Source: Candidatus Altarchaeum sp. (GTDB lineage: Archaea; Altiarchaeota; Altiarchaeia; Altiarchaeales; Altiarchaeaceae). Taken from it: 64,000 nucleotides of DNA. The DNA is taken from positions 1,981-65,980 of the forward strand of contig JAGWDQ010000060.1 in NCBI GenBank assembly GCA_018260615.1. Reading direction: 5' to 3'. Numbering within the stretch: position 1 is the first letter of the stretch; every line of letters starts with the position of its first letter. Of the stretch, positions 48,018 to 64,000 are shown one piece after another. A program made the position numbers and the translations under genes. Under the pieces are notes generated by a model. The model ran no database searches. It had not been told where the DNA came from and saw only the letters and a list, made by a program, of their open reading frames with translations.

Positions 48018-48220
48018 TTTTTTTAAAGGACTAATAAAGACAAAAATTAGACATAAAATTATTTTCTCTGTGCCTCTGTGGTGCTAAACAAATACAAATT
48101 TTTGTTTAAAATTTTTCTTTTCGCCCGTGTTTTCTTTATAAGAAAAGGCGGATTTTAATATCGGAGTGGGTCAGGATAAATTTATTTTAAAAATGAAAAT
48201 TTATGAATTTTCTTATTTTC

Positions 48221-55605: not shown

Positions 55606-57288
55606 TTATTTCTTTTCAATCATTTCAAATAATTTCCCTCCCGGCCTCACCATAGGAAGAATATGCTCTTCTCTGTCAACAGCAACATCTATTATTGTCG
55701 GCTTTCCACACTCCATTGCATCCTTAAAAGCAGGTCTTATTTCATCCGGTTTTTCAACCCTGATTCCTTTTGCGCTGAATGCCTCTGCAAATTTCACAAA
55801 GTCAGGAACCTCTCCGAGATAAGTTGCAGAATATCTTTTATCATAAAACAAATTTTGCCACTGCTTTACCATTCCAAGCCATCTGTTATCAAGCAATAAA
55901 ACAACAACGGGAATTTTTTCAACAACACATGTTGCCAAATCCTGACAAGTCATTAAAAAAGAACCCTCGCTTCCGACATCTATCACATTACATTCGGGTC
56001 TTGCAACCTTTGCACCGATAGATGCGGGAAATCCGAATCCCATCGTTCCCAAGCCCCCTGAACTTATGAACTGTCTCGGATTTTTAACATTCAGATAATG
56101 CGCCGCCCACATCTGACACTGGCCAACTTCTGTGACAATTATTGTTTTATCATCAATTAATTCATTTAATTCCTTCATAACCCTTTGCTGTTTTACCGGA
56201 ACATTGTCATAGTCATAAAAAGGAGCATATTCCTGCTTATATTTCTTTACTTTTTCGCTCCATGCATATTTCTCTTTACTTTTTAACTTACCGACAACTT
56301 CCGTAATCTTTTGCAATACATTTTTTGCATCGCCGACTATTGGCACATCCGCTCTTACATTTTTGCCTATTTCTGCTGCGTCAATGTCCGCATGAATAAT
56401 CTTTGCATAAGGAGCAAAGGACTTAATATCTCCGGTAACCCTGTCACTGAATCGGCATCCGACGGCAAATAAAACATCGCACTCGCTGATTAAGTAATTT
56501 GCCGCCTTTCTTCCGTGCATTCCAACCATTCCCAAAGCAAGAGGATGTGTTTCAGGAATTGCTCCCTTCCCCATTAATGTTGTTGCTATCGGAATATTAA
56601 GCGATTCGGCAAATCGTATTAATTCGGATGATGCATTTGATGATATGACTCCTCCTCCGGCGAGAATTAAAGGCATTTCCGCATTCAAAAGCAATTCCGA
56701 GGCGGCTTTTACGGGACCGGGATGAATTTCTGATTTTATATCTTTATAACCTCGCAAATCAACATCATTCGGATAAAGAAATTTATTTGTTAGTTCCTTT
56801 CTTTGCATATCTTTTGGAAAGTCAATTAAAACAGGACCCTGTCTTCTCGTTGATGCAATTTTAAAAGCCGACTTCACAACAGTTGGAATTGTCTCAGGAT
56901 CTCTTATCTGAAAATTATGTTTTGATATTGGCATTGTGATTCCCATGATGTCGGCTTCCTGAAAAGCATCCTTCCCTATCATATATGTCGGAACCTGCCC
57001 GGTTACTGCAACAACAGGTACGGAGTCCAGAAATGCGTCTGCAATTCCCGTAACTAAATTTGTTCCTCCGGGTCCGGATGTGGCAAAACAAACACCTGTC
57101 TTTCCGGATGCCCGTGCATAACCCTCTGCTGCGTGTGCGGCAACCTGCTCGTGCCTGACTAAAATATGCCTTATATTTGAGTCCAGAATTTTGTCATAAA
57201 CATCCAAAATTGACCCGCCCAATATTCCAAATATATTTTTAACTCCTTCACTTTCAAGTGATTTTATAAGTGCTTCCGCTCCATTCAT
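55606..57288 (-). CDS. ilvB: Acetolactate synthase large (catalytic) subunit
   Basis: 560-aa ThDP enzyme with GILGGSILDVYD, the TPP-binding motif GLGTMGFGFPASIGA...DG and the N-terminal MNGAEALIKSLE. Confidence 0.93.
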   Translation of the reverse strand: MNGAEALIKSLESEGVKNIFGILGGSILDVYDKILDSNIRHILVRHEQVAAHAAEGYARASGKTGVCFATSGPGGTNLVTGIADAFLDSVPVVAVTGQVPTYMIGKDAFQEADIMGITMPISKHNFQIRDPETIPTVVKSAFKIASTRRQGPVLIDFPKDMQRKELTNKFLYPNDVDLRGYKDIKSEIHPGPVKAASELLLNAEMPLILAGGGVISSNASSELIRFAESLNIPIATTLMGKGAIPETHPLALGMVGMHGRKAANYLISECDVLFAVGCRFSDRVTGDIKSFAPYAKIIHADIDAAEIGKNVRADVPIVGDAKNVLQKITEVVGKLKSKEKYAWSEKVKKYKQEYAPFYDYDNVPVKQQRVMKELNELIDDKTIIVTEVGQCQMWAAHYLNVKNPRQFISSGGLGTMGFGFPASIGAKVARPECNVIDVGSEGSFLMTCQDLATCVVEKIPVVVLLLDNRWLGMVKQWQNLFYDKRYSATYLGEVPDFVKFAEAFSAKGIRVEKPDEIRPAFKDAMECGKPTIIDVAVDREEHILPMVRPGGKLFEMIEKK

Positions 57289-57402
57289 TTTATGTTTGGT
57301 TATTTTAAATTTTCTTATTTTATAGATTTCTAATTAGGATTATAAATTTTCAATTATAATTAAAATTTTGAATAAAAAACTAAATTTATAAAAAACTTAA
57401 AA

Positions 57403-58185
57403 ATGTTAAATTTAGGTATCATCGGATGCGGAAATATCGGGAGAACGATAATTAGGGCAATTTACGAAGGAAAGATTGACTGCAAAGTTATCGGTGTTTT
57501 TGATGCAAATAAAGACGGATATAATGCACTTTCAGACGAAATAAAAAGGCAGCTCAAATTTTTTGATGACTTTGATAAATTTATTAAAGAGGATGCAAAT
57601 TTAATATTAGAGGCGGCATCACAGCAGGCGGTAAAGGAGTATGCGGTTAATGTCCTGAATCACGATAAAAATTTAATGCTCATGAGTGTTGGGGCATTGG
57701 TTGACAAAAATTTATCTGATGAAATAAGGCGAATTGCAAAAACAAAAAATTTAAAAATTTACATTCCGTCGGGAGCAGTTGTAGGCATTGACGGAGTTAA
57801 GGCGGCGATGCTCGGAGGTATTGAAAGCGTCACGCTTACAACAAGAAAAAACCCGAAAGGTTTAGGAGTTACCGCAGACAATGAAAAAATTTTGTTTGAC
57901 GGGAATACGAATGAAGCAGTTGTTAAATTTCCGAAAAATATCAATGTAGCGGCAACTTTGAGTTTGGCGGGAATCGGATTTGAAAAAACAAAGGTTAAGA
58001 TTATTGCAAACCCGAATGTTAGTGAAAACATCCACGAGATTCGTATCAAGGGAAATTTCGGGGAAATTTTAACAGTTGCAAGAAATTTACCTTCTCCGGA
58101 TAATCCGAAGACATCTTATCTTGCTTCACTGGCGGCGATGGCGTGCCTTAAACGGATAACGTCTGAAATTGAGATTGGGACATAA
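57403..58185 (+). CDS. nadX: L-aspartate dehydrogenase
   Basis: GIIGCGNIG, IPSGAVVGIDG and NPKTSYLASLAA. 260 aa. Confidence 0.88.
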   Translation: MLNLGIIGCGNIGRTIIRAIYEGKIDCKVIGVFDANKDGYNALSDEIKRQLKFFDDFDKFIKEDANLILEAASQQAVKEYAVNVLNHDKNLMLMSVGALVDKNLSDEIRRIAKTKNLKIYIPSGAVVGIDGVKAAMLGGIESVTLTTRKNPKGLGVTADNEKILFDGNTNEAVVKFPKNINVAATLSLAGIGFEKTKVKIIANPNVSENIHEIRIKGNFGEILTVARNLPSPDNPKTSYLASLAAMACLKRITSEIEIGT

Positions 58186-58191
58186 AAAATG

Positions 58192-58290
58192 CTCACACAA
58201 AGTCACAAAGTCACAGAGTGTATTTCCTCTTTGTGTCTCGGTGTCTCCATGTGAGGATAATAAAACGAACTTTCCTGTATTATAAAAAAT
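58192..58290 (+). repeat. Repeat family R1, copy c
   Basis: Starts 7 nt after the nadX stop and is near-identical to copy a. Confidence 0.85.
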
Positions 58291-58519
58291 ATATAAAAAA
58301 TATATAAAAATGCCAGATTCATTAATTGAAGAACTACCTAAAACAGTAGCACAAGGAAAAAAAGAAACGCAGAGGATATTAGATAATATCTCAACAAGAA
58401 ACAGAATTTAATTATTTGTATTCTAAATAGTAATTTGTTATAACTTTAAAAATTTATTTTGTTTGTCATCAAAATTATTTGTATGATTTAGAAATTTTCA
58501 TTTTAAAAAAATAGAGATA

Positions 58520-59116
58520 ATGAATAATTTGTTTAATGATTTGGAAGATGACGAAAGAATCGTGATTTATGCACTTGGAGCTTTAAATAACACTCCTATA
58601 AGAAGTAAAATAAAAATTCAAAAATTACTTTTCCTGATTTCAAATGTATTTAAGAAATATAAAGACCTTCTTGAATTTGAGCCACACTTATTTGGTCCAT
58701 ATAGTGAGAGATTAGAATATATTGTCCAGGATATTCAAAAATTAGGACTGATTGAAATTGAAGGCAGTAAATATAAATTAACTCAAAAGGGCTTTGATTT
58801 ATACCTGCATCTAAAACCAAAGAAAGACTTATTGAAGGTTATAGAAGACTTCAAGGACTTTTTAAATGATCTGCCAGATGATGAGATATTAGCATTTATA
58901 TATGTTTCCTATCCCAAATATATTGGAGAGTCAGCTAAATGGGATGATCTAAAAAAAGACTGCGTTGAAATTGCAATCTCTTTGTTAAAAAAGGAAAAGG
59001 TTAGCTTTGGAAAAGCTGTGGAAATTTCCGGATTATCTTCTTTTGACTTTGAAGAGTTGCTGAAAAAAAAGAATATAAAATGGAAAAAAATAACCTCACT
59101 TTGTTCGGATATTTAA
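58520..59116 (+). CDS. Fusion protein: SocA/Panacea-like N-terminal region, wHTH-like segment and UPF0175-like antitoxin C-terminus
   Basis: KIQKLLFLISNVF...FEPHLFGPYSE is Panacea-like. KLGLIEIEGSKYKLTQKG is wHTH-like. VSFGKAVEISGLSSFDFEELLKKKNI is UPF0175-like. Confidence 0.6.
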   Translation: MNNLFNDLEDDERIVIYALGALNNTPIRSKIKIQKLLFLISNVFKKYKDLLEFEPHLFGPYSERLEYIVQDIQKLGLIEIEGSKYKLTQKGFDLYLHLKPKKDLLKVIEDFKDFLNDLPDDEILAFIYVSYPKYIGESAKWDDLKKDCVEIAISLLKKEKVSFGKAVEISGLSSFDFEELLKKKNIKWKKITSLCSDI

Positions 59117-59130
59117 AAATAAATTTTTAA

Positions 59131-59691
59131 ATGACTACCAAGATTTTTGATAATACTGTAATTAGTTCAAGCATAAATGAAATTGAAAGTATAAATCTAA
59201 TAGAGAAATGTTTAGAACGATATTCGATAGTTACCTCTATTGAAGTATATGAGGAGACAAAAAAAGGATTTCCTGAACAATCCAAAGAGAGTTATAAAAA
59301 AATAAGTATTTTTGATTTGAAGGATAACAAGTTGTTTGCTATTTTAATAGAATACTTATCAGATAGATATCCTTACTTGCATAAAGGCGAACTATCCTCT
59401 TTTTTAGTATCTCTTATTGAGTATGAAATGAAGGATAAAGAATACTATTTTGTAACAGATGACAACAGGATGAGAAAAGCAATTTCAAAGATATTTGAGG
59501 ATAACTTATTTGTCTCTAAACTAACTCATAAACCTTTAAAATTTAATATGACGGGAACGGTTGGATTACTAAAAAGGCTTTGCCAACGAAATATTCTAAC
59601 AAAAAAGGATGTTGAAAAAGTAATAGCTGATTTAGAAAATAGTTCATTTTATATAACTCCGGAACTAATCAAATATTTAAAAGCGTGTTAA
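59131..59691 (+). CDS. DUF3368-type PIN-domain protein (usual partner of UPF0175)
   Basis: IFDNTVISSSIN...LIEK, SIEVYEETKKG, HKGELSSF, VTDDNRMRKAI and GTVGLLKRLCQRNILTKKD follow the DUF3368 pattern. Confidence 0.7.
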   Translation: MTTKIFDNTVISSSINEIESINLIEKCLERYSIVTSIEVYEETKKGFPEQSKESYKKISIFDLKDNKLFAILIEYLSDRYPYLHKGELSSFLVSLIEYEMKDKEYYFVTDDNRMRKAISKIFEDNLFVSKLTHKPLKFNMTGTVGLLKRLCQRNILTKKDVEKVIADLENSSFYITPELIKYLKAC

Positions 59692-59692
59692 T

Positions 59693-60775
59693 ATGAAAAT
59701 AAATGTAAAACTTGACAATTTTGATGAAGAATTGATGTTTAAAAGATTTAATTTAAAAGTAGGAGATAAACAAATAGTTACTCCAATAAAGGCAAGTTAC
59801 AAACTAAATCCTGTAAGCAGTATAAATGAGATATACAAAAAGTTTGATTTCAATAAAATAAACAAGTGTATTACTAATGAAGGATTTGAAAGGATGGTTA
59901 ATGCGGATGTCAAAAAAGATATGACTTCTGGAATTAATATTTGCTTAATTGAATATAATGCTTTTGAAATGCCTGATGATAAGCAAATTGAAGTTTTATC
60001 AGACTTACAATATGAACATAGTGATATTGTTGTAACGCCAATTTTATCAAAAATAACTCGTGAATTAACAGAAGATAAACTTTTGAACTCTTTCAATACA
60101 ATCACAAATAAATATATGGAGATAGTTGAAACATTAAATCATAAAAGCATAGTGGGGATTATACCTTCCAGGATGCCAAGACAATTTTTAGAACCCATAA
60201 TAAAGAATTACAAATCAAAAAACATTACTTCATTCGTTATAGATTTTGATGGAAGATCTGTTGACACAAATGAAAGTTGGATAAGAAAGCTTTTCAGGTT
60301 ACTGAAAGATAATGATTTACTGGAAGAATCTTTTCTTTATTCTATCAATGCTAACACAGGTAAATTTATGAAACAAACAAACGAAATATTAGCAAAGGAT
60401 TTTATTTGCAGCGGTTTCGGGATAGATATTTTAGGGCTGAATCATATTCCGCCAAGAATGCCTTCCGAAGCATGGACTAAAATTAAACAACAAAGAAGAG
60501 AAAATACATTTAGAATGTTTAATAGAAATTCTTATGGCTATTTGAAAAGAACAGAAACAGAACTAAAAAACGAGGGAATAAACAATCGTGAGGATAGAAA
60601 TAATTTCAATATTACTGAACAATTCAATGAATCAAAAGTCCTGCAATTAAAATTAAAAGAAGAGAATAGCATAGAGCCATATATAAGAACAAAATCACAA
60701 GTTACAGAAAATATTATAAAGCAGATTAAAAAAATCAGAAAGGACGTATTCAAAGGAACTAATTTATATTTTTAA
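59693..60775 (+). CDS. Hypothetical protein, 360 aa, no family recognised
   Basis: The start is 1 nt after the PIN stop. An alternating strand/helix pattern (IVVTPIL, VGIIPSR, TSFVIDFDGRS, LYSINAN, SGFGIDILG) suggests an alpha/beta barrel-like fold. Confidence 0.6.
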   Translation: MKINVKLDNFDEELMFKRFNLKVGDKQIVTPIKASYKLNPVSSINEIYKKFDFNKINKCITNEGFERMVNADVKKDMTSGINICLIEYNAFEMPDDKQIEVLSDLQYEHSDIVVTPILSKITRELTEDKLLNSFNTITNKYMEIVETLNHKSIVGIIPSRMPRQFLEPIIKNYKSKNITSFVIDFDGRSVDTNESWIRKLFRLLKDNDLLEESFLYSINANTGKFMKQTNEILAKDFICSGFGIDILGLNHIPPRMPSEAWTKIKQQRRENTFRMFNRNSYGYLKRTETELKNEGINNREDRNNFNITEQFNESKVLQLKLKEENSIEPYIRTKSQVTENIIKQIKKIRKDVFKGTNLYF

Positions 60776-60781
60776 TCTAAA

Positions 60782-60991
60782 ATGAACGACAAACAAAAGG
60801 AAATTTTATACTGGGCTTTGGGAATAGTATTTGCAATTGCATTTGTTGTAGTATTTGTTTATATTTTATATCACCCCGAAATTGACTTTTTGATCCAGAT
60901 TTTTCTTATGGTTATAACATCTCTTATATCTTCGTATTTTTTGAGTTTGGCATATCAGTATCACAAAATAAATAAAATTTCAAAGAAATGA
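60782..60991 (+). CDS. Small two-TM membrane protein (69 aa)
   Basis: Two hydrophobic helices. It lies 6 nt after the previous gene, and its stop overlaps the next start in ATGA. Confidence 0.5.
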   Translation: MNDKQKEILYWALGIVFAIAFVVVFVYILYHPEIDFLIQIFLMVITSLISSYFLSLAYQYHKINKISKK

Positions 60992-61482
60992 AAATTTTAT
61001 GGTGCATTACAGGTGCGGGGCAGTTTTTAAAGGAATGTGTTGAAATTTTGGACAAAAACAATGATGTAAAGACGGTGGCAATTTCGGAAGCGGGAGAGGA
61101 TGTCCTGAAAATGTATGGAATTAAACCAAAGACAGAACATAAAATTTTGGAAAAAGAGCAGGGTAAGGCATTTCCATTTTGCGGAAAGGTTTGTAAAGGC
61201 GATTATGATTTGATTATTGCCGCTCCTGTTACATCAAATACCGTTGCAAAACTTGCTTACGGGATTTCCGATTCTTTGATTACCGTAATAATTACGCAGG
61301 CAATAAAATCGGCAATTCCGGTTTATTTGTTGCCCACAGATATTTCGGAGGGGTATTCAATAACGCCAAAGGGGAGGAAAATTTATGTGAAAGTAAGGGA
61401 AATAGATAAAAAGAATATTGAAAGAATAGCAAAACAGGGAATTAAAATTTTAAAAAGTCCGGAAGAAATTAAAAATTTGTAA
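60988..61482 (+). CDS. Flavoprotein-family protein (AfpA/HFCD-like)
   Basis: MKILWCITGAGQFL and APVTSNTVAKLAYGISDSLIT are typical of the PF02441-type flavoprotein fold. Confidence 0.7.
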   Translation: MKILWCITGAGQFLKECVEILDKNNDVKTVAISEAGEDVLKMYGIKPKTEHKILEKEQGKAFPFCGKVCKGDYDLIIAAPVTSNTVAKLAYGISDSLITVIITQAIKSAIPVYLLPTDISEGYSITPKGRKIYVKVREIDKKNIERIAKQGIKILKSPEEIKNL

Positions 61483-61499
61483 TTGTTTAGATAATATTA

Positions 61500-61620
61500 T
61501 CAAAAATTCACCGCAGAGGCGCGGAGAACGCAGAGGAATTTTTAAATCTATAAGATCTAAAATCTCATAGCAACAGCGAGGTGACCGCTCTGTCTCTGCG
61601 GTGCTAAACAAATATAAAAA
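61500..61620. repeat. GC-richer long hairpin (caccgcagag ... ctctgcggtg) with a hairpin-tail unit in its loop, plus the shared tail ggtgctaaacaaata
   Basis: A 10-bp perfect inverted repeat flanks ..atagcaacagcgaggtgac... The right half recurs at about 48066-48100. Confidence 0.6.
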
Positions 61621-61624
61621 TTTA

Positions 61625-61757
61625 ATTATAGTAAATTTATCAACTTTAAGTTCGCTTCGCTCTCATATTTCAAATTCTCTGCGAATTTGAAATTGCTTAA
61701 ATTTACTATACTCGTGAATTCACTTCAAAGGTATCAAAAGTTAGTGAATTCACTATA
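61625..61757 (+). repeat. 133-bp structured interspersed repeat (family R2), copy b
   Basis: Near-identical to 18771-18903. It ends 3 nt before the K+ channel start codon. Confidence 0.85.
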
Positions 61758-61760
61758 AAA

Positions 61761-62114
61761 ATGAATAACGAGGTTAAAAGTGAAAGAATAAGAATATTTG
61801 TTGTAGTCTTTTTAATCGGAATTTTGTTGATTATAGGAACCTTTACATATCATGATCTGGAGGGTTGGGATTATGTTGATTCGTTTTATTTTTCAGTAGT
61901 GTCTTTAACTTCCGCAGGTTACGGAGATATTTGCCCGACAACAGAAATTAGTAAAATTTTTACATCGTTTTATCTTTTATTTGGTGTTTCAATATTCTTT
62001 TACAGGCTTTTTATAATCGGAGAACATGTAATCAACAAGAGAATGGGCAGATTAGAGAAAATGATGCAAAGAAAGGTAAAGGAAGAAAATGAGGAAAGTA
62101 AAAATAAGATATAA
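61761..62114 (+). CDS. Two-TM potassium channel (pore-only, KcsA-like)
   Basis: Selectivity filter TSAGYGD between two hydrophobic helices. 117 aa. Confidence 0.8.
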   Translation: MNNEVKSERIRIFVVVFLIGILLIIGTFTYHDLEGWDYVDSFYFSVVSLTSAGYGDICPTTEISKIFTSFYLLFGVSIFFYRLFIIGEHVINKRMGRLEKMMQRKVKEENEESKNKI

Positions 62115-62160
62115 TGGAGTTGAATTGCATTTTTAACTACACATTTCTCCGTTCTGATTT

Positions 62161-62565
62161 TTATTTACTCCAATTTTGTATCTCTAATTCTTCAATTTGT
62201 TGAAAATGCTTCTCATTTCCTGTGACCAAAACAAGATTATTGGCCAATGCTATGCCGGCAATTAAAATGTCAATATCATCAATCAAATATCCGGTTTTGC
62301 GTAAATTTGCATAAATATCACCGGAAATTGAAATGGACTGAATAGTTAAAGGTAAAATATTGCTGTAATTAGCAAAATTTAAAAAATGATTGAGTTGCTT
62401 ATGGGCATCTCTGTATTTTAACCCGGATAGGATTTCATAATAGGTGACAATACTAAAATTGATGCTTTCGTATTCTTTAAGGTATTTTTTGAACTTATCT
62501 ACTACCTGATGATGTTCCCGAAAAAACAAGGACAAAATATCCGTATCAACTAAAACATGTTTCAT
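62161..62565 (-). CDS. vapC: PIN-domain toxin VapC
   Basis: VLVDTDILSLFF, YYEILSG, DILIAGIALANNLVLVTGNEKHF. Confidence 0.85.
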   Translation of the reverse strand: MKHVLVDTDILSLFFREHHQVVDKFKKYLKEYESINFSIVTYYEILSGLKYRDAHKQLNHFLNFANYSNILPLTIQSISISGDIYANLRKTGYLIDDIDILIAGIALANNLVLVTGNEKHFQQIEELEIQNWSK

Positions 62566-62807
62566 CTTTCTCTGCTTAAAAATGCCTGTTTACGGCGTTC
62601 TCCTATTTCTTTGGTAAAACTATTAAATTTTTCATCAGGCATATCTTTCCAGCAACCTGCAAATTCCAGGATTTTATTCGTGTCTGACTTAGATCTTTCT
62701 AATCCTACCCTGAAAAAATGAATAATATCATAAACAGCATTTAGTTTCTCCAAAGGAATAAGGCAGATTTCATTCATAACCTTTTCCTGTAATGGATATG
62801 ATTCCAT
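62562..62807 (-). CDS. VapC-partner antitoxin
   Basis: 4-nt overlap with vapC. The FAGCWKDMPDEKFNSF...RRKQAF motif is typical of this antitoxin family. Confidence 0.65.
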   Translation of the reverse strand: MESYPLQEKVMNEICLIPLEKLNAVYDIIHFFRVGLERSKSDTNKILEFAGCWKDMPDEKFNSFTKEIGERRKQAFLSRER

Positions 62808-62890
62808 TCTTTTTAATTTAATTAATAAATAGGAAAATTAAATTAAGATATTAAGTAAATTAAAAACCAATAAATAACAAAGTTGATAAA

Positions 62891-63910
62891 ATGAAAGAAG
62901 CGATGCTTTATGAAAAATTAGCGAAAGGAAAAAATTTGGTAAAATGTAATTTGTGCAATCATCATTGTGTAATTGCCGATGGAAAAAGAGGAATCTGTGG
63001 CGTGAGAGAAAACAAAAACGGAACTTTATATTCTTTAAATTATGGAAAAATTATTGCTCATAATGTTGACCCGATTGAGAAGAAGCCGTTTTTTCACTTT
63101 TTTCCCGGAAGTGAGGCACTTTCAATTTCAGGCGAGGGATGTAATTTTTCCTGCAAACACTGTCAGAACTGGGAAATTTCGCAATTAGTCAGGGAAAGGA
63201 AAGAAATTTACGGGGAAAATTTTAAGCCAGAAGAAATTGTTGAGATGGCAAAAAAATATAACTGCAAAAGCATTTCATATACTTATACCTCACCCACGAT
63301 ATTTTTTGAATTTGCCTATGAGACAGCAAAAATAGCAAAAAAAGAAAAAATTTATAATAATTTTGTGTCAAACGGATATATGAGCGAGCAAACGATAAAT
63401 TTAATGAGCGGACTGATTGATGCGGTAAATGTTGATATTAAGGGATTTACCGAAAAATTTTACAGAGAAATTTGCGGTGCTTCACTTGAAAAATTGCTGA
63501 ATTCGGTTAAATTGCTGAAGAAAACAGGAATGTGGATTGAAATTACAACATTGCTCATTCCGACCTTAAACGATGGTGAGGAACAAATTAAAGGAGTTAT
63601 TGAGTTTGTTAAAGATGAACTTGGGAAGGAAACACCTTTGCACTTTTCGCTGTTTTATCCTTACTATAAACTGGTACATCTTCCTCCGACACCAGTTGAA
63701 ACGGCAAGAAAGGCGAGAGAGATGGCTTTGGAATCCGGTTTGAGATATGTTTATACGGGAAATTATCCTGGTGATGAAGGTGAAAATACTTATTGCTATA
63801 ATTGTAAAAATTTACTTATAAAGCGATGCGGATTTATGGTTGAGAAAAATTTAACTGAAAAAGGAAGGTGTCCTCACTGCGGGGCAAAGATTGACGGGAT
63901 TTTTGAATAA
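62891..63910 (+). CDS. amrS: AmmeMemoRadiSam system radical SAM enzyme
   Basis: CNFSCKHCQNWEIS radical-SAM cluster, N-terminal CNLCNHHC...CGVR, and a C-terminal CYNC...CPHCG zinc ribbon. Confidence 0.88.
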   Translation: MKEAMLYEKLAKGKNLVKCNLCNHHCVIADGKRGICGVRENKNGTLYSLNYGKIIAHNVDPIEKKPFFHFFPGSEALSISGEGCNFSCKHCQNWEISQLVRERKEIYGENFKPEEIVEMAKKYNCKSISYTYTSPTIFFEFAYETAKIAKKEKIYNNFVSNGYMSEQTINLMSGLIDAVNVDIKGFTEKFYREICGASLEKLLNSVKLLKKTGMWIEITTLLIPTLNDGEEQIKGVIEFVKDELGKETPLHFSLFYPYYKLVHLPPTPVETARKAREMALESGLRYVYTGNYPGDEGENTYCYNCKNLLIKRCGFMVEKNLTEKGRCPHCGAKIDGIFE

Positions 63911-64000
63911 TATGAAATCACTTTGAAAATACTAAAATATAAAATAAGATATGGTGCAGATACCGCAGAATATTTTGGATGTTGTTGTTTTCACAGTTTA

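What the first reader, a model, noticed from the sequence alone, without database searches (positions are those of the whole stretch)
58520..61482. Tightly packed operon: Panacea-wHTH-UPF0175 fusion, DUF3368 PIN, unknown 360-aa protein, 2-TM peptide and flavoprotein
Seen: five + strand genes separated by 14, 1 and 6 nt and then a 4-nt overlap. Gene 1 combines three regions. The N-terminal region resembles the SocA/Panacea (DUF4065) signature (KIQKLLFL...FEPHLFGPYSE). A wHTH-like segment follows. The C-terminus resembles UPF0175 antitoxins (VSFGKAVEISGLSSFDFEELLKKKNI). Gene 2 follows the DUF3368 PIN pattern, which is the canonical UPF0175 partner. Gene 3 (360 aa) has an alpha/beta repeat pattern and no motif I can place. 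Established: Panacea is described as a promiscuous antitoxin domain found next to many unrelated toxin families. Inference: a single dual-module antitoxin may control two toxins, the PIN protein and the unknown 360-aa protein, making the latter a candidate new toxin or effector. The downstream membrane peptide and flavoprotein may or may not belong to the unit.
Basis: partly seen in the sequence, partly recalled or inferred. Interest (0 to 1): 0.68.

Follow-up and report, generated by a model that had tools for sequence, protein, structure and literature searches.

The report
Three-gene archaeal PIN–TGT-like toxin module
The first three genes form a mobile cassette found in many archaea: an antitoxin-like regulator, a PIN RNase toxin, and an uncharacterised protein whose predicted fold is that of tRNA-guanine transglycosylase; the last two genes are unrelated neighbours.

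Summary
The five ORFs and their spacings (14, 1, 6, -4 nt) are exactly as described. Only genes 1-3 form a unit. The triplet recurs in the same order, usually with overlapping stop and start codons, in 29 non-redundant complete loci. These come from Altiarchaeota, Methanosarcinales/ANME-2, Methanococci, Methanomicrobiales, Methanofastidiosa, Thermoplasmata and Asgard archaea. Genes 4 and 5 occur in none of them.

Gene 1 has a C-terminal UPF0175 domain that passes Pfam's threshold. Its N-terminal winged-helix domain is not a Pfam DUF4065/Panacea member. It is related to the toxin-binding C-terminal domain of DarG, which the literature links to Panacea. Gene 2 is a DUF3368/COG2405 PIN protein with its acidic active-site residues intact.

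Gene 3 belongs to an unannotated family of about 520 clusters. Its confident model (pLDDT 92.5) matches only tRNA-guanine transglycosylases in the PDB. It lacks the zinc site and apparently the family's three catalytic aspartates, and it has its own invariant polar residues.

Gene 2 and gene 3 are never separated. Gene 1 homologues also pair with HEPN or Schlafen-type partners.

Best reading: a tripartite toxin-antitoxin or defence module with a PIN plus TGT-fold effector pair. Whether gene 3 is toxic was not tested. This is a new variant of a known kind.

The parts
58520..59116 (+). Gene 1 (198 aa): antitoxin/regulator-like protein with two modules
   Evidence: ORF. 98 homologous clusters found. 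AF2 model pLDDT 91.4. Always immediately upstream of the gene 2 and gene 3 homologues.
58520..58924 (+). Gene 1 N-terminal module (about aa 1-135): DarG-C-terminal-domain/Panacea-like helical domain that includes a winged helix (about aa 61-100)
   Evidence: PADLOC PDC-M19A E 5.7e-12 (aa 14-147) and DarG E 1.5e-6. NCBIfam DarG E 1.6e-4. Foldseek best hit 7yk3 DarG C-terminal domain, E 1.2e-3, probability 1.0. Sso10a winged helix E 3.6e-4. HTH_45 in 40/45 members. Pfam DUF4065 gives no hit. The domain boundary is approximate.
58937..59083 (+). Gene 1 C-terminal module (aa 140-188): UPF0175 (COG2886) HTH antitoxin domain
   Evidence: Pfam PF03683 E 7.2e-9, 35.7 bits against a cutoff of 27.9. Hit in 45/45 family members. 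Also matches PADLOC PDC-S70 models.
59131..59691 (+). Gene 2 (186 aa): COG2405/DUF3368 PIN-like nuclease, the putative toxin
   Evidence: Pfam PF11848 E 1.1e-6, above cutoff. PADLOC PDC-S70 E 4.3e-6. Invariant D7, E42, D110, D111 and near-invariant E87, S89, T109 in 22 homologues.
59693..60775 (+). Gene 3 (360 aa): divergent tRNA-guanine-transglycosylase-fold (beta/alpha)8 barrel protein from an unannotated family
   Evidence: No hit in Pfam, NCBIfam, PADLOC or PHROGs. 522 clusters at 50% identity. AF2 pLDDT 92.5, pTM 0.91. All 50 Foldseek PDB hits listed (158 reach E<=0.001) are TGT/QTRT, best E 1.2e-7. Family invariants: T30 P31 E46 P116 K151 G155 D184 N219 D236 D245 G248 H251 F276 Y281 Y283 E313 K334.
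58412..58519 (+). A+T-rich upstream region, presumed promoter/operator of the cassette (inferred only)
   Evidence: Position only. Nearly the same sequence precedes gene 1 in Altiarchaeales A3 (L005). No conserved operator was found across more distant loci.

Best explanation
Genes 1-3 form a horizontally mobile, tripartite toxin-antitoxin-like (probably abortive-infection or defence) module of archaea.

Gene 1 is the neutralising and DNA-binding component. Its UPF0175 domain is the cognate partner of the COG2405/DUF3368 PIN protein. Its N-terminal DarG-CTD/Panacea-like winged-helix domain offers a second protein-binding surface.

Gene 2 is an active PIN-type RNase.

Gene 3 descends from the tRNA-guanine transglycosylase fold. 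It has kept the structural core but replaced the catalytic apparatus. It is basic (pI 9.0) and I infer that it still acts on a nucleic acid, most likely tRNA.

Gene 2 and gene 3 are inseparable, while gene 1 is exchangeable. I therefore read genes 2 and 3 as a two-part effector, translationally coupled, that gene 1 holds inactive. When gene 1 is lost or titrated, the PIN nuclease cleaves RNA, and gene 3 either presents the substrate or damages it itself.

Shown here: the domain identities, the fold, the conserved active-site residues of the PIN protein, and the linkage statistics. Inferred: neutralisation by gene 1, toxicity, the substrate, and any physical complex of genes 2 and 3.
For: Synteny:
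- All 13 loci seeded on gene 3 carry homologues of genes 1 and 2 in the same order. These include distant members at 29-33% identity.
- Of 46 assessable metagenome loci seeded on gene 1, 38 have gene 2 directly downstream. All 27 of those with enough contig left have gene 3.
- There are 29 non-redundant complete triplets, mostly with stop/start overlaps (gaps of -4 to -25 nt when each ORF is started at its first possible start codon) or +1-nt spacing.
- Flanking genes differ between loci. Neighbours are often other TA or defence genes: KAP NTPase, HD, DUF4411 with M78 peptidase, an MNT-type nucleotidyltransferase, PanA.
- Pairwise distances of the three proteins correlate, r 0.76-0.87.

Domains:
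- See for gene 1, and for gene 2.
- PADLOC lists the UPF0175 and DUF3368 models as candidate defence system PDC-S70. That system is enriched in archaea and not experimentally validated (PMC12988326).

Gene 3:
- AF2 model pLDDT 92.5. Every PDB hit listed is a TGT.
- The best local profile alignment to E. coli Tgt pairs DLQYxxSDIV with EIQYDLGSDIV and LNHKSIVGIIPS with LGNKNALFGIIQG.
- By eye, the N-terminal three-stranded sheet ending in T30-P31 corresponds to the ETP of TGT.
- About 20 positions are at least 90% conserved across 187 members, about ten of them polar or aromatic side chains, as expected for an enzyme.
Against: - Nothing here measures toxicity, neutralisation or binding.
- Gene 3 lacks the defining TGT catalytic features, so its chemistry and substrate are guesses.
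- Gene 1 is the most conserved of the three proteins (mean distance 0.75 against 1.21). That is unusual for an antitoxin and could mean it is more than a neutraliser.
- A distant gene 3 relative on a Haloarcula plasmid has no gene 1 or gene 2 nearby, so the family can work in another context.
- One MAG (L005) has a frameshifted gene 2 beside intact genes 1 and 3.
- No member was found on viral contigs, and there is no direct link to phage defence.
Confidence: 0.5

Rival explanations
1. Gene 3 is an independent second toxin. The two halves of gene 1 divide the work: UPF0175 neutralises the PIN protein, and the DarG-CTD/Panacea-like domain neutralises the TGT-fold protein, perhaps by mimicking nucleic acid as DarG does for DarT.
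For: - The N-terminal domain is related to a domain whose known job is to bind and inhibit a nucleic-acid-modifying toxin (PMC13621843).
- Every locus with gene 3 and its partners has the long, two-module form of gene 1.
- In partial correlations, the C-terminal half tracks gene 2 and not gene 3 (0.68 against 0.12). The N-terminal half tracks gene 3 somewhat more (0.31).
Against: - Full-length gene 1 homologues with both modules also sit in front of HEPN plus ATPases, or a Schlafen/AlbA_2 protein, with neither PIN nor gene 3 present. The modules are therefore not dedicated to these two partners.
- The N-terminal half correlates better with gene 2 (0.60) than with gene 3 (0.31).
- Toxicity of gene 3 is untested.
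Confidence: 0.25
2. Gene 3 is not an effector. It is a sensor, a protective modifier or another accessory factor. For example, it might recognise or modify a host or viral nucleic acid or protein and so trigger or tune the PIN toxin, as Cap10 (a TGT-fold protein) works on a protein partner in type IV CBASS.
For: - TGT-fold proteins have already been re-tooled for DNA (DpdA) and for a protein substrate (Cap10) (PMC10164549; bioRxiv 10.1101/2025.04.06.647259).
- The canonical catalytic residues are missing from gene 3.
- Strict linkage to gene 2 fits any obligatory partnership.
Against: - No 7-deazaguanine biosynthesis genes or other supply genes appear in any locus listing.
- The many conserved polar residues suggest catalysis rather than mere binding.
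- Nothing discriminates this from the best explanation without an experiment.
Confidence: 0.2
3. All five genes form one functional operon, with the 2-TM peptide and the flavoprotein belonging to the system.
For: Tight spacing in this window (6 nt and a 4-nt overlap).
Against: - Homologues of genes 4 and 5 are absent from all 78 fetched loci, while genes 1-3 recur.
- Gene 5 resembles the AfpA and dihydromethanopterin-reductase families of archaeal flavoproteins (TIGR02699 E 2e-37, TIGR02700 E 2e-35; both scores are below the curated cut-offs). I read it as a host gene.
- G+C rises to 35% within gene 5.
Confidence: 0.03
4. Gene 3 is an unrelated or housekeeping neighbour of an ordinary two-gene UPF0175-PIN pair.
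For: None beyond the absence of any annotation.
Against: - Linkage held wherever it could be checked, across several archaeal phyla and with differing flanks.
- Stop/start overlaps with gene 2.
- Patchy, mobile distribution.
Confidence: 0.02

Closest known systems
UPF0175 (COG2886) - COG2405/DUF3368 PIN toxin-antitoxin pairs (PADLOC candidate PDC-S70)
   Same: Gene 1's C-terminus and gene 2 match both Pfam families above threshold and match the PDC-S70 models. The antitoxin-first order is the same. The archaeal enrichment is the same (PMC5499597, PMC2701414, PMC12988326).
   Different: Here the antitoxin carries an extra N-terminal domain of about 135 aa, and an obligatory third gene follows. 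PDC-S70 is catalogued as a single-gene PIN system. The PIN survey's 'three-component' variants involve HTH plus a DUF955 protease, not this protein. Gene 1 homologues also pair with HEPN, so UPF0175 is not exclusive to COG2405 in this subfamily.
DarTG (the C-terminal domain of DarG)
   Same: The gene 1 N-terminal domain matches the DarG models over DarG's C-terminal, DarT-binding domain. Its best structural match is that domain in the DarT-DarG complex 7yk3.
   Different: There is no macrodomain and no DarT. Similarity is remote (14-17% identity, TM 0.4-0.5). The partner proteins are unrelated to DarT.
PanAT systems (Panacea/DUF4065 antitoxins)
   Same: The helical, winged-helix-like antitoxin domain shares the KxxKLLY/F and GP motifs. 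Like Panacea, it is found with several unrelated effector types: PIN plus TGT-like, HEPN, Schlafen.
   Different: It fails the Pfam PF13274 model in all 45 members. The direct profile comparison is not significant (E 0.11). Here the domain is fused to a second antitoxin domain.
tRNA-guanine transglycosylase superfamily (TGT, ArcTGT, DpdA, Cap10)
   Same: Predicted (beta/alpha)8 barrel with the N-terminal three-stranded sheet. All PDB matches listed are TGTs. Structural motifs at the bottom of the barrel appear retained: SD before strand 4 and N-x-K before strand 5 in the profile alignment; TP and G-I-D before strand 8 by eye.
   Different: No PF01702 hit. No conserved cysteines, so no zinc subdomain. 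The three aspartates that are invariant in TGT and DpdA appear absent or variable. A different set of invariant residues takes their place (E46, D184, N219, D236, H251, Y281, Y283, E313, K334). The genomic context is TA-like, not queuosine or archaeosine synthesis.
Tripartite TA systems (for example HTH-DUF955-PIN, or toxin-antitoxin-chaperone)
   Same: Three co-transcribed, co-inherited genes built around a type II-like pair.
   Different: The third component belongs to a different and previously undescribed family, and its role is unknown.

Membership tests
UPF0175 (PF03683) antitoxin | Match to the Pfam model above the gathering score | tested here: met
   35.7 bits against a cutoff of 27.9, aa 140-188. 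Matched in 45/45 family members at E<=10, best E 4.5e-12.
UPF0175 (PF03683) antitoxin | Encoded immediately upstream of a COG2405/DUF3368 PIN gene | tested here: met
   14-nt gap in the window. 38 of 46 assessable gene 1 loci have the PIN gene directly downstream.
UPF0175 (PF03683) antitoxin | Neutralises its toxin and binds its own promoter | not testable with these tools
   Needs co-expression, pull-down and EMSA.
COG2405/DUF3368 PIN-like nuclease | Match to PF11848 above the gathering score | tested here: met
   28.8 bits against 27.3, aa 141-181. PADLOC PDC-S70 model E 4.3e-6.
COG2405/DUF3368 PIN-like nuclease | Conserved acidic PIN active-site residues (D, E, D, D) | tested here: met
   D7, E42, D110 and D111 invariant, E87 near-invariant, in 22 homologues. 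The assignment to PIN positions is by sequence pattern. No structure was predicted for gene 2, and its profile has no PDB sequence match.
Panacea / SocA (PF13274, DUF4065) | Match to the Pfam model | tested here: not met
   No hit at E<=1 for gene 1 and none at E<=10 in any of 45 family members. A genuine Panacea protein in L015 scores E 5.9e-20 with the same tool.
Panacea / SocA (PF13274, DUF4065) | Detectable remote homology of the domain | tested here: inconclusive
   hhalign against one genuine Panacea protein gives E 0.11 with the expected motifs aligned. The indirect link is through DarG's C-terminal domain plus the literature statement that DUF4065 is homologous to it (PMC13621843).
Panacea / SocA (PF13274, DUF4065) | Association with many unrelated toxin families | tested here: met
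   Gene 1 homologues precede PIN plus TGT-like, HEPN plus ATPases, or Schlafen/AlbA_2 proteins.
DarG | N-terminal macrodomain (ADP-ribosyl glycohydrolase) and a DarT partner | tested here: not met
   Only the C-terminal-domain region of the DarG models is matched (model positions 165-237). The score of 21 bits is far below the cutoff of 250. No DarT is present in any locus.
tRNA-guanine transglycosylase family (PF01702; TGT/DpdA) | TGT-type (beta/alpha)8 barrel fold | tested here: met
   AF2 pLDDT 92.5, pTM 0.91. All 50 Foldseek PDB hits listed are TGT/QTRT, best E 1.2e-7, probability 1.0, TM up to 0.62; 158 hits reach E<=0.001.
tRNA-guanine transglycosylase family (PF01702; TGT/DpdA) | Sequence match to the family model | tested here: not met
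   No PF01702 hit in any of 50 members at E<=10. The gene 3 HMM against E. coli Tgt is not significant. hhalign E 0.12.
tRNA-guanine transglycosylase family (PF01702; TGT/DpdA) | Three invariant active-site aspartates: general acid/base, base recognition and nucleophile (PMC10164549) | tested here: inconclusive
   No residue-level superposition was available. In the best local profile alignment, the Tgt 'IFDEC' segment that I take (from memory, not from a tool) to hold the base-recognition Asp falls in a gap of gene 3. By strand order, the general-acid position is variable (E/D/N/S/A at residue 87), and the nucleophile position aligns by eye with a 98%-conserved glycine, G248. Most likely not met.
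tRNA-guanine transglycosylase family (PF01702; TGT/DpdA) | Zinc-binding Cys/His cluster in the C-terminal subdomain (from my own knowledge of the TGT structures, not checked in a paper here) | tested here: not met
   No alignment column has cysteine in more than 20% of 187 members. In the model the C-terminus is a beta-hairpin followed by long helices.
Type II toxin-antitoxin system (generic) | Toxic protein neutralised by direct binding of a co-encoded antitoxin | not testable with these tools
   Only architecture, linkage and mobility are shown.

The most novel reading that the evidence does not exclude
Gene 3 founds a new functional class of the TGT superfamily. It would be a nucleic-acid-targeting toxin or effector (for example a tRNA or DNA base-excising or base-modifying enzyme) with a re-invented active site. 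It would work together with a PIN RNase and be held in check by a DarG-CTD/Panacea-like domain. This would be the first TGT-fold protein used as a weapon in a toxin-antitoxin or defence module, and it is widespread in archaea, including Asgard lineages.
Probability: 0.2. Interest if true: 0.85.

Novelty: new variant of a known kind. Interest (0 to 1): 0.62.

Why it matters
COG2405/DUF3368 PIN proteins (PADLOC PDC-S70) are among the most common candidate defence genes of archaea. They are thought to be of archaeal origin, yet none has been characterised (PMC12988326). This result shows that one large branch of them is really a three-gene system. Its third member is an unannotated protein family of about 520 clusters, derived from the tRNA-guanine transglycosylase fold. 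That gives a concrete, testable handle on how these systems work. It also adds a possible fourth use of the TGT fold, after tRNA, DNA and protein substrates. Finally, it shows a DarG-CTD/Panacea-like antitoxin domain fused to a second antitoxin domain and reused with several effector types. The system is present in Methanosarcina barkeri (gene 3 = MSBRW_1867), a cultivated methanogen whose genus I know (from my own knowledge, not checked here) to have genetic tools, and in a Methanocaldococcus strain with a complete genome.

Tried and rejected
- Family libraries for gene 3 (Pfam, NCBIfam, PADLOC, PHROGs) found nothing. The only weak match was DUF7570, in 15 of 50 members. The Haloarcula relative does not share it.
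- A sequence profile of gene 3 against PDB sequences gave only chance hits.
- Foldseek against viral models gave two weak uncharacterised hits, plus hits annotated queuine/queuosine tRNA-ribosyltransferase at E about 0.01-0.02. No relative was found on IMG/VR contigs.
- hhalign of gene 3 against E. coli Tgt was not significant as a single sequence or as a small family alignment, though the local alignment is sensible.
- My last large homologue search, on E. coli Tgt, returned only relatives at 83% identity or more. It did not give the diverse TGT profile I wanted.
- A genuine Panacea protein against PDB sequences gave no hit, so I could not reproduce the Panacea-DarG link myself.
- The gene 2 profile against PDB sequences gave no hit.
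- No repeats flanking the cassette or conserved operator upstream of gene 1 were found. The only feature is an A+T-only 16-nt inverted pair that may be chance.
- Rfam found nothing in 57000-64000.
- Literature searches for this triplet, for YwgA and for TGT-like toxins found no description of it.
- Rejected readings: the five-gene operon and the housekeeping-neighbour explanation.


Full report
**Observation.** The window holds five + strand ORFs at exactly the stated coordinates. They are 58520-59116 (gene 1, 198 aa), 59131-59691 (gene 2, 186 aa), 59693-60775 (gene 3, 360 aa), 60782-60991 (gene 4, 69 aa) and 60988-61482 (gene 5, 164 aa). The gaps are 14, 1 and 6 nt, followed by a 4-nt overlap. 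The stretch holding genes 1-4 has 25-30% G+C, against 35-40% in most of the flanking windows. Exact matches name the source as Candidatus Altiarchaeales archaeon HGW-Altiarchaeales-1. The flanks are ordinary genes: acetolactate synthase, aspartate dehydrogenase and a K+ channel, plus a separate VapBC-like pair.

**Which genes belong together.** I collected 78 related loci from several sources:
- exact-protein look-ups;
- a species-representative genome scan seeded on gene 3;
- a metagenome scan seeded on gene 1.

All 13 loci seeded on gene 3 carry gene 1 and gene 2 homologues directly upstream, in the same order. This includes two distant members with only 29-33% identity in gene 3: ANME-2 locus L013 and locus L014.

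Of 46 assessable loci seeded on gene 1, 38 have gene 2 immediately downstream. All 27 of those with enough contig left also have gene 3. The other 11 contigs end too early to tell.

Twenty-nine non-redundant complete triplets were recovered. When each ORF is started at its first possible start codon, the gene junctions are mostly overlaps of 4-25 nt or 1-nt gaps. Flanking genes differ from locus to locus. The hosts span Altiarchaeota, Methanosarcina barkeri, ANME-2, Methanocaldococcus, Methanoregula, Methanofastidiosum, Thermoplasmata, Heimdall- and Hodarchaeota, and a Nanoarchaeota MAG.

Genes 4 and 5 occur in none of these loci. Gene 5 resembles the AfpA and dihydromethanopterin-reductase families of archaeal flavoproteins (TIGR02699 E 2e-37, TIGR02700 E 2e-35). 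Both scores are below the curated cut-offs, and I read gene 5 as a host gene. The unit is therefore genes 1-3. In Altiarchaeales A3 the cassette lies at the same place, just after the aspartate dehydrogenase gene.

**Gene 1.** The C-terminus (aa 140-188) is a UPF0175 domain above Pfam's threshold. It is found in all 45 aligned family members.

The N-terminal two thirds do not match Pfam's SocA_Panacea/DUF4065 model in any member, even at E<=10. They do match:
- PADLOC's PDC-M19A (E 5.7e-12) and the C-terminal-domain part of the DarG models (PADLOC E 1.5e-6, NCBIfam E 1.6e-4);
- an uncharacterised PHROG (E 1e-8);
- the Sso10a winged helix, for the middle part (E 3.6e-4).

A confident AF2 model (pLDDT 91.4) has as its best PDB matches the DarG C-terminal domain bound to DarT (7yk3; E 1.2e-3, probability 1.0, TM 0.47).

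A 2026 paper states that DUF4065 proteins are homologous to this DarG domain (PMC13621843). I compared the gene 1 profile with a genuine Panacea protein that happens to lie next to the triplet in Methanofastidiosum (PF13274 E 5.9e-20).

I conclude that gene 1 has two modules: a DarG-CTD/Panacea-like winged-helix domain and UPF0175. It is not a member of the Pfam Panacea family.

**Gene 2.** DUF3368 scores above threshold at the C-terminus, and the PDC-S70 PIN model also hits. In 22 homologues D7, E42, D110 and D111 are invariant, and E87, S89 and T109 are nearly so. This is the acidic pattern expected of an active PIN nuclease. The literature places COG2405/DUF3368 in the VapC-like group of PIN domains, with UPF0175 as its characteristic partner (PMC5499597, PMC2701414).

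**Gene 3.** No library recognises it. It has 54 full-length homologues at 90% clustering. An exhaustive profile search finds 522 clusters at 50% identity, of which 357 have E<=1e-10. Full-length members run about 320-420 aa, and the ten distant members I scanned had no Pfam domain.

The AF2 model is very confident (pLDDT 92.5, pTM 0.91). It shows an N-terminal three-stranded sheet, eight strand-helix units, a beta-hairpin and long C-terminal helices. Foldseek against the PDB returns 158 hits at E<=0.001. The 50 listed are all tRNA-guanine transglycosylases or QTRT1/2 (best E 1.2e-7, probability 1.0, TM up to 0.62, about 9% identity).

Sequence methods see nothing significant. Even so, the best local profile alignment to E. 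coli Tgt pairs DLQYxxSDIV with EIQYDLGSDIV, and LNHKSIVGIIPS with LGNKNALFGIIQG. By eye, the sheet ending in T30-P31 matches the ETP of TGT, and GIDILG matches GIDMFD. These are residues at the bottom of the barrel, which fits divergent descent from a TGT ancestor.

The catalytic face differs:
- TGT and DpdA have three invariant aspartates (PMC10164549).
- The Tgt 'IFDEC' segment, which I take from memory to hold the base-recognition Asp, falls in a gap of gene 3.
- The general-acid position is variable (E/D/N/S/A at residue 87).
- The nucleophile position aligns by eye with a 98%-conserved glycine, G248.
- No cysteine is conserved, so there is no zinc site.

Instead, 187 members keep E46, D184, N219 (100%), D236, D245, H251, Y281, Y283, E313 and K334. 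The protein is basic (pI 9.0). I could not obtain a residue-level superposition, so the mapping of catalytic positions is inferred.

**Partner logic.** Gene 2 of this subfamily and gene 3 are never found apart where this can be judged. Gene 1 is exchangeable: eight gene-1 loci lack both.
- In three of them (L040, L050, L051) gene 1 overlaps a HEPN gene; where the contig continues (L040, L050), ParA-like and AAA/ORC-like ATPases follow.
- In one (L064) it precedes a Schlafen AlbA_2/HATPase_c_4 protein.
- The gene 1 proteins of L040 and L064, the two I scanned, keep the UPF0175 domain.

Pairwise distances of the three proteins correlate (r 0.76-0.87). In partial correlations, the UPF0175 half follows gene 2 (0.68) and not gene 3 (0.12). 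The N-terminal half follows gene 2 (0.60) more than gene 3 (0.31).

Gene 1 is the slowest-evolving of the three. A distant gene 3 relative on a Haloarcula plasmid stands without genes 1 and 2.

**Interpretation.** The best-supported reading is a mobile, tripartite toxin-antitoxin or defence-type module. Gene 1 would be the neutraliser and regulator. Genes 2 and 3 would form a coupled effector: a PIN RNase plus a re-tooled TGT-fold nucleic-acid enzyme or substrate-binding subunit. I give this about 0.5.

It is not favoured by the promiscuity of gene 1 or by the correlation data. A non-effector role for gene 3 (sensor or modifier, by analogy with Cap10) gets about 0.2. The five-gene operon and the chance-neighbour readings are rejected.

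**Novelty.** PADLOC lists the PIN and UPF0175 models as candidate system PDC-S70. That system is treated as single-gene, is enriched in archaea and is untested (PMC12988326). The PIN survey's three-component variants involve a DUF955 protease. I found no paper describing a TGT-fold third gene or this fused antitoxin. It is therefore a new variant of a known kind, built around a protein family that has not been described. All functional statements remain predictions.

Noticed in passing
window 62161-62807 (- strand): A separate VapBC-like pair. A 134-aa PIN protein (PF01850 E 1.5e-11) is preceded by an 81-aa protein with a weak VapB-antitoxin match, with a 4-nt overlap.
   Followed up: no
window 58186-58411: About 200 nt between the aspartate dehydrogenase stop and the cassette's upstream region hold a G+C-rich element of about 70 nt (58190-58265) and a 33-aa ORF (58310-58411). 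This stretch is absent at the same spot in Altiarchaeales A3 (L005).
   Followed up: partly
window 61505-61600 (also 48066-48083): An element of about 90 nt downstream of gene 5 has the terminal inverted repeat CACCGCAGAG...CTCTGCGGTG. A similar motif lies at 48066. There is no Rfam match. It may be a small repeated element or a structured RNA.
   Followed up: partly
window 58445-58460 and 59116-59131: A perfect 16-nt inverted pair (TTTAAAAATTTATTTT / AAAATAAATTTTTAAA) brackets gene 1. One arm is upstream of gene 1 and the other fills the gap between genes 1 and 2. It is A+T only, so it may be chance, and it is not conserved in other loci.
   Followed up: partly
L040 3680-7550; L050 322-4204; L051 3968-5018: Gene 1 homologues (50-58% identical to those of other non-triplet loci, UPF0175 intact) overlap a 143-146-aa HEPN protein. 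Where the contig continues (L040, L050), a ParA-like ATPase of about 450 aa and an AAA/ORC-like ATPase of about 500 aa follow. This is a different candidate system using the same antitoxin-like protein.
   Followed up: partly
L064 3953-6288: A gene 1 homologue sits directly upstream of a 562-aa Schlafen AlbA_2 / HATPase_c_4 protein.
   Followed up: partly
L015/L016 2704-3664 (- strand): In Methanofastidiosum, a genuine SocA_Panacea protein (PF13274 E 5.9e-20) with a 133-aa partner lies divergently next to the triplet. This is a small cluster of TA modules.
   Followed up: partly
L077 3998-5212 (Haloarcula sp. JP-L23 plasmid CP050016): A distant gene 3 relative (404 aa, 24% identity, family motifs kept) has no gene 1 or gene 2 nearby. 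Two small overlapping unannotated genes lie about 540 nt upstream.
   Followed up: partly
L005 4369-4924 (Altiarchaeales A3): Gene 2 is split over two frames (a frameshift or an assembly error), while genes 1 and 3 are intact.
   Followed up: no
L004 and L006, about 150 nt upstream of gene 1: A small ORF ending just before gene 1 encodes a conserved peptide (...YCKKKGL(V/I)ISRQFEIF...). To my eye it looks like a ribbon-helix-helix protein, though no search was run. It may be a fourth gene in some loci.
   Followed up: no
L004, P0070, P0093 (record titles): Some cassette-bearing contigs are labelled Gammaproteobacteria, Patescibacteria or Clostridia MAGs. Given 72-77% identity to the Altiarchaeales proteins in two of them, this is probably mis-binning, though transfer to bacteria is possible.
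   Followed up: no
29 triplet loci: Gene 1 evolves more slowly than genes 2 and 3 (mean distance 0.75 against 1.21). This is the reverse of the usual antitoxin-toxin pattern.
   Followed up: partly
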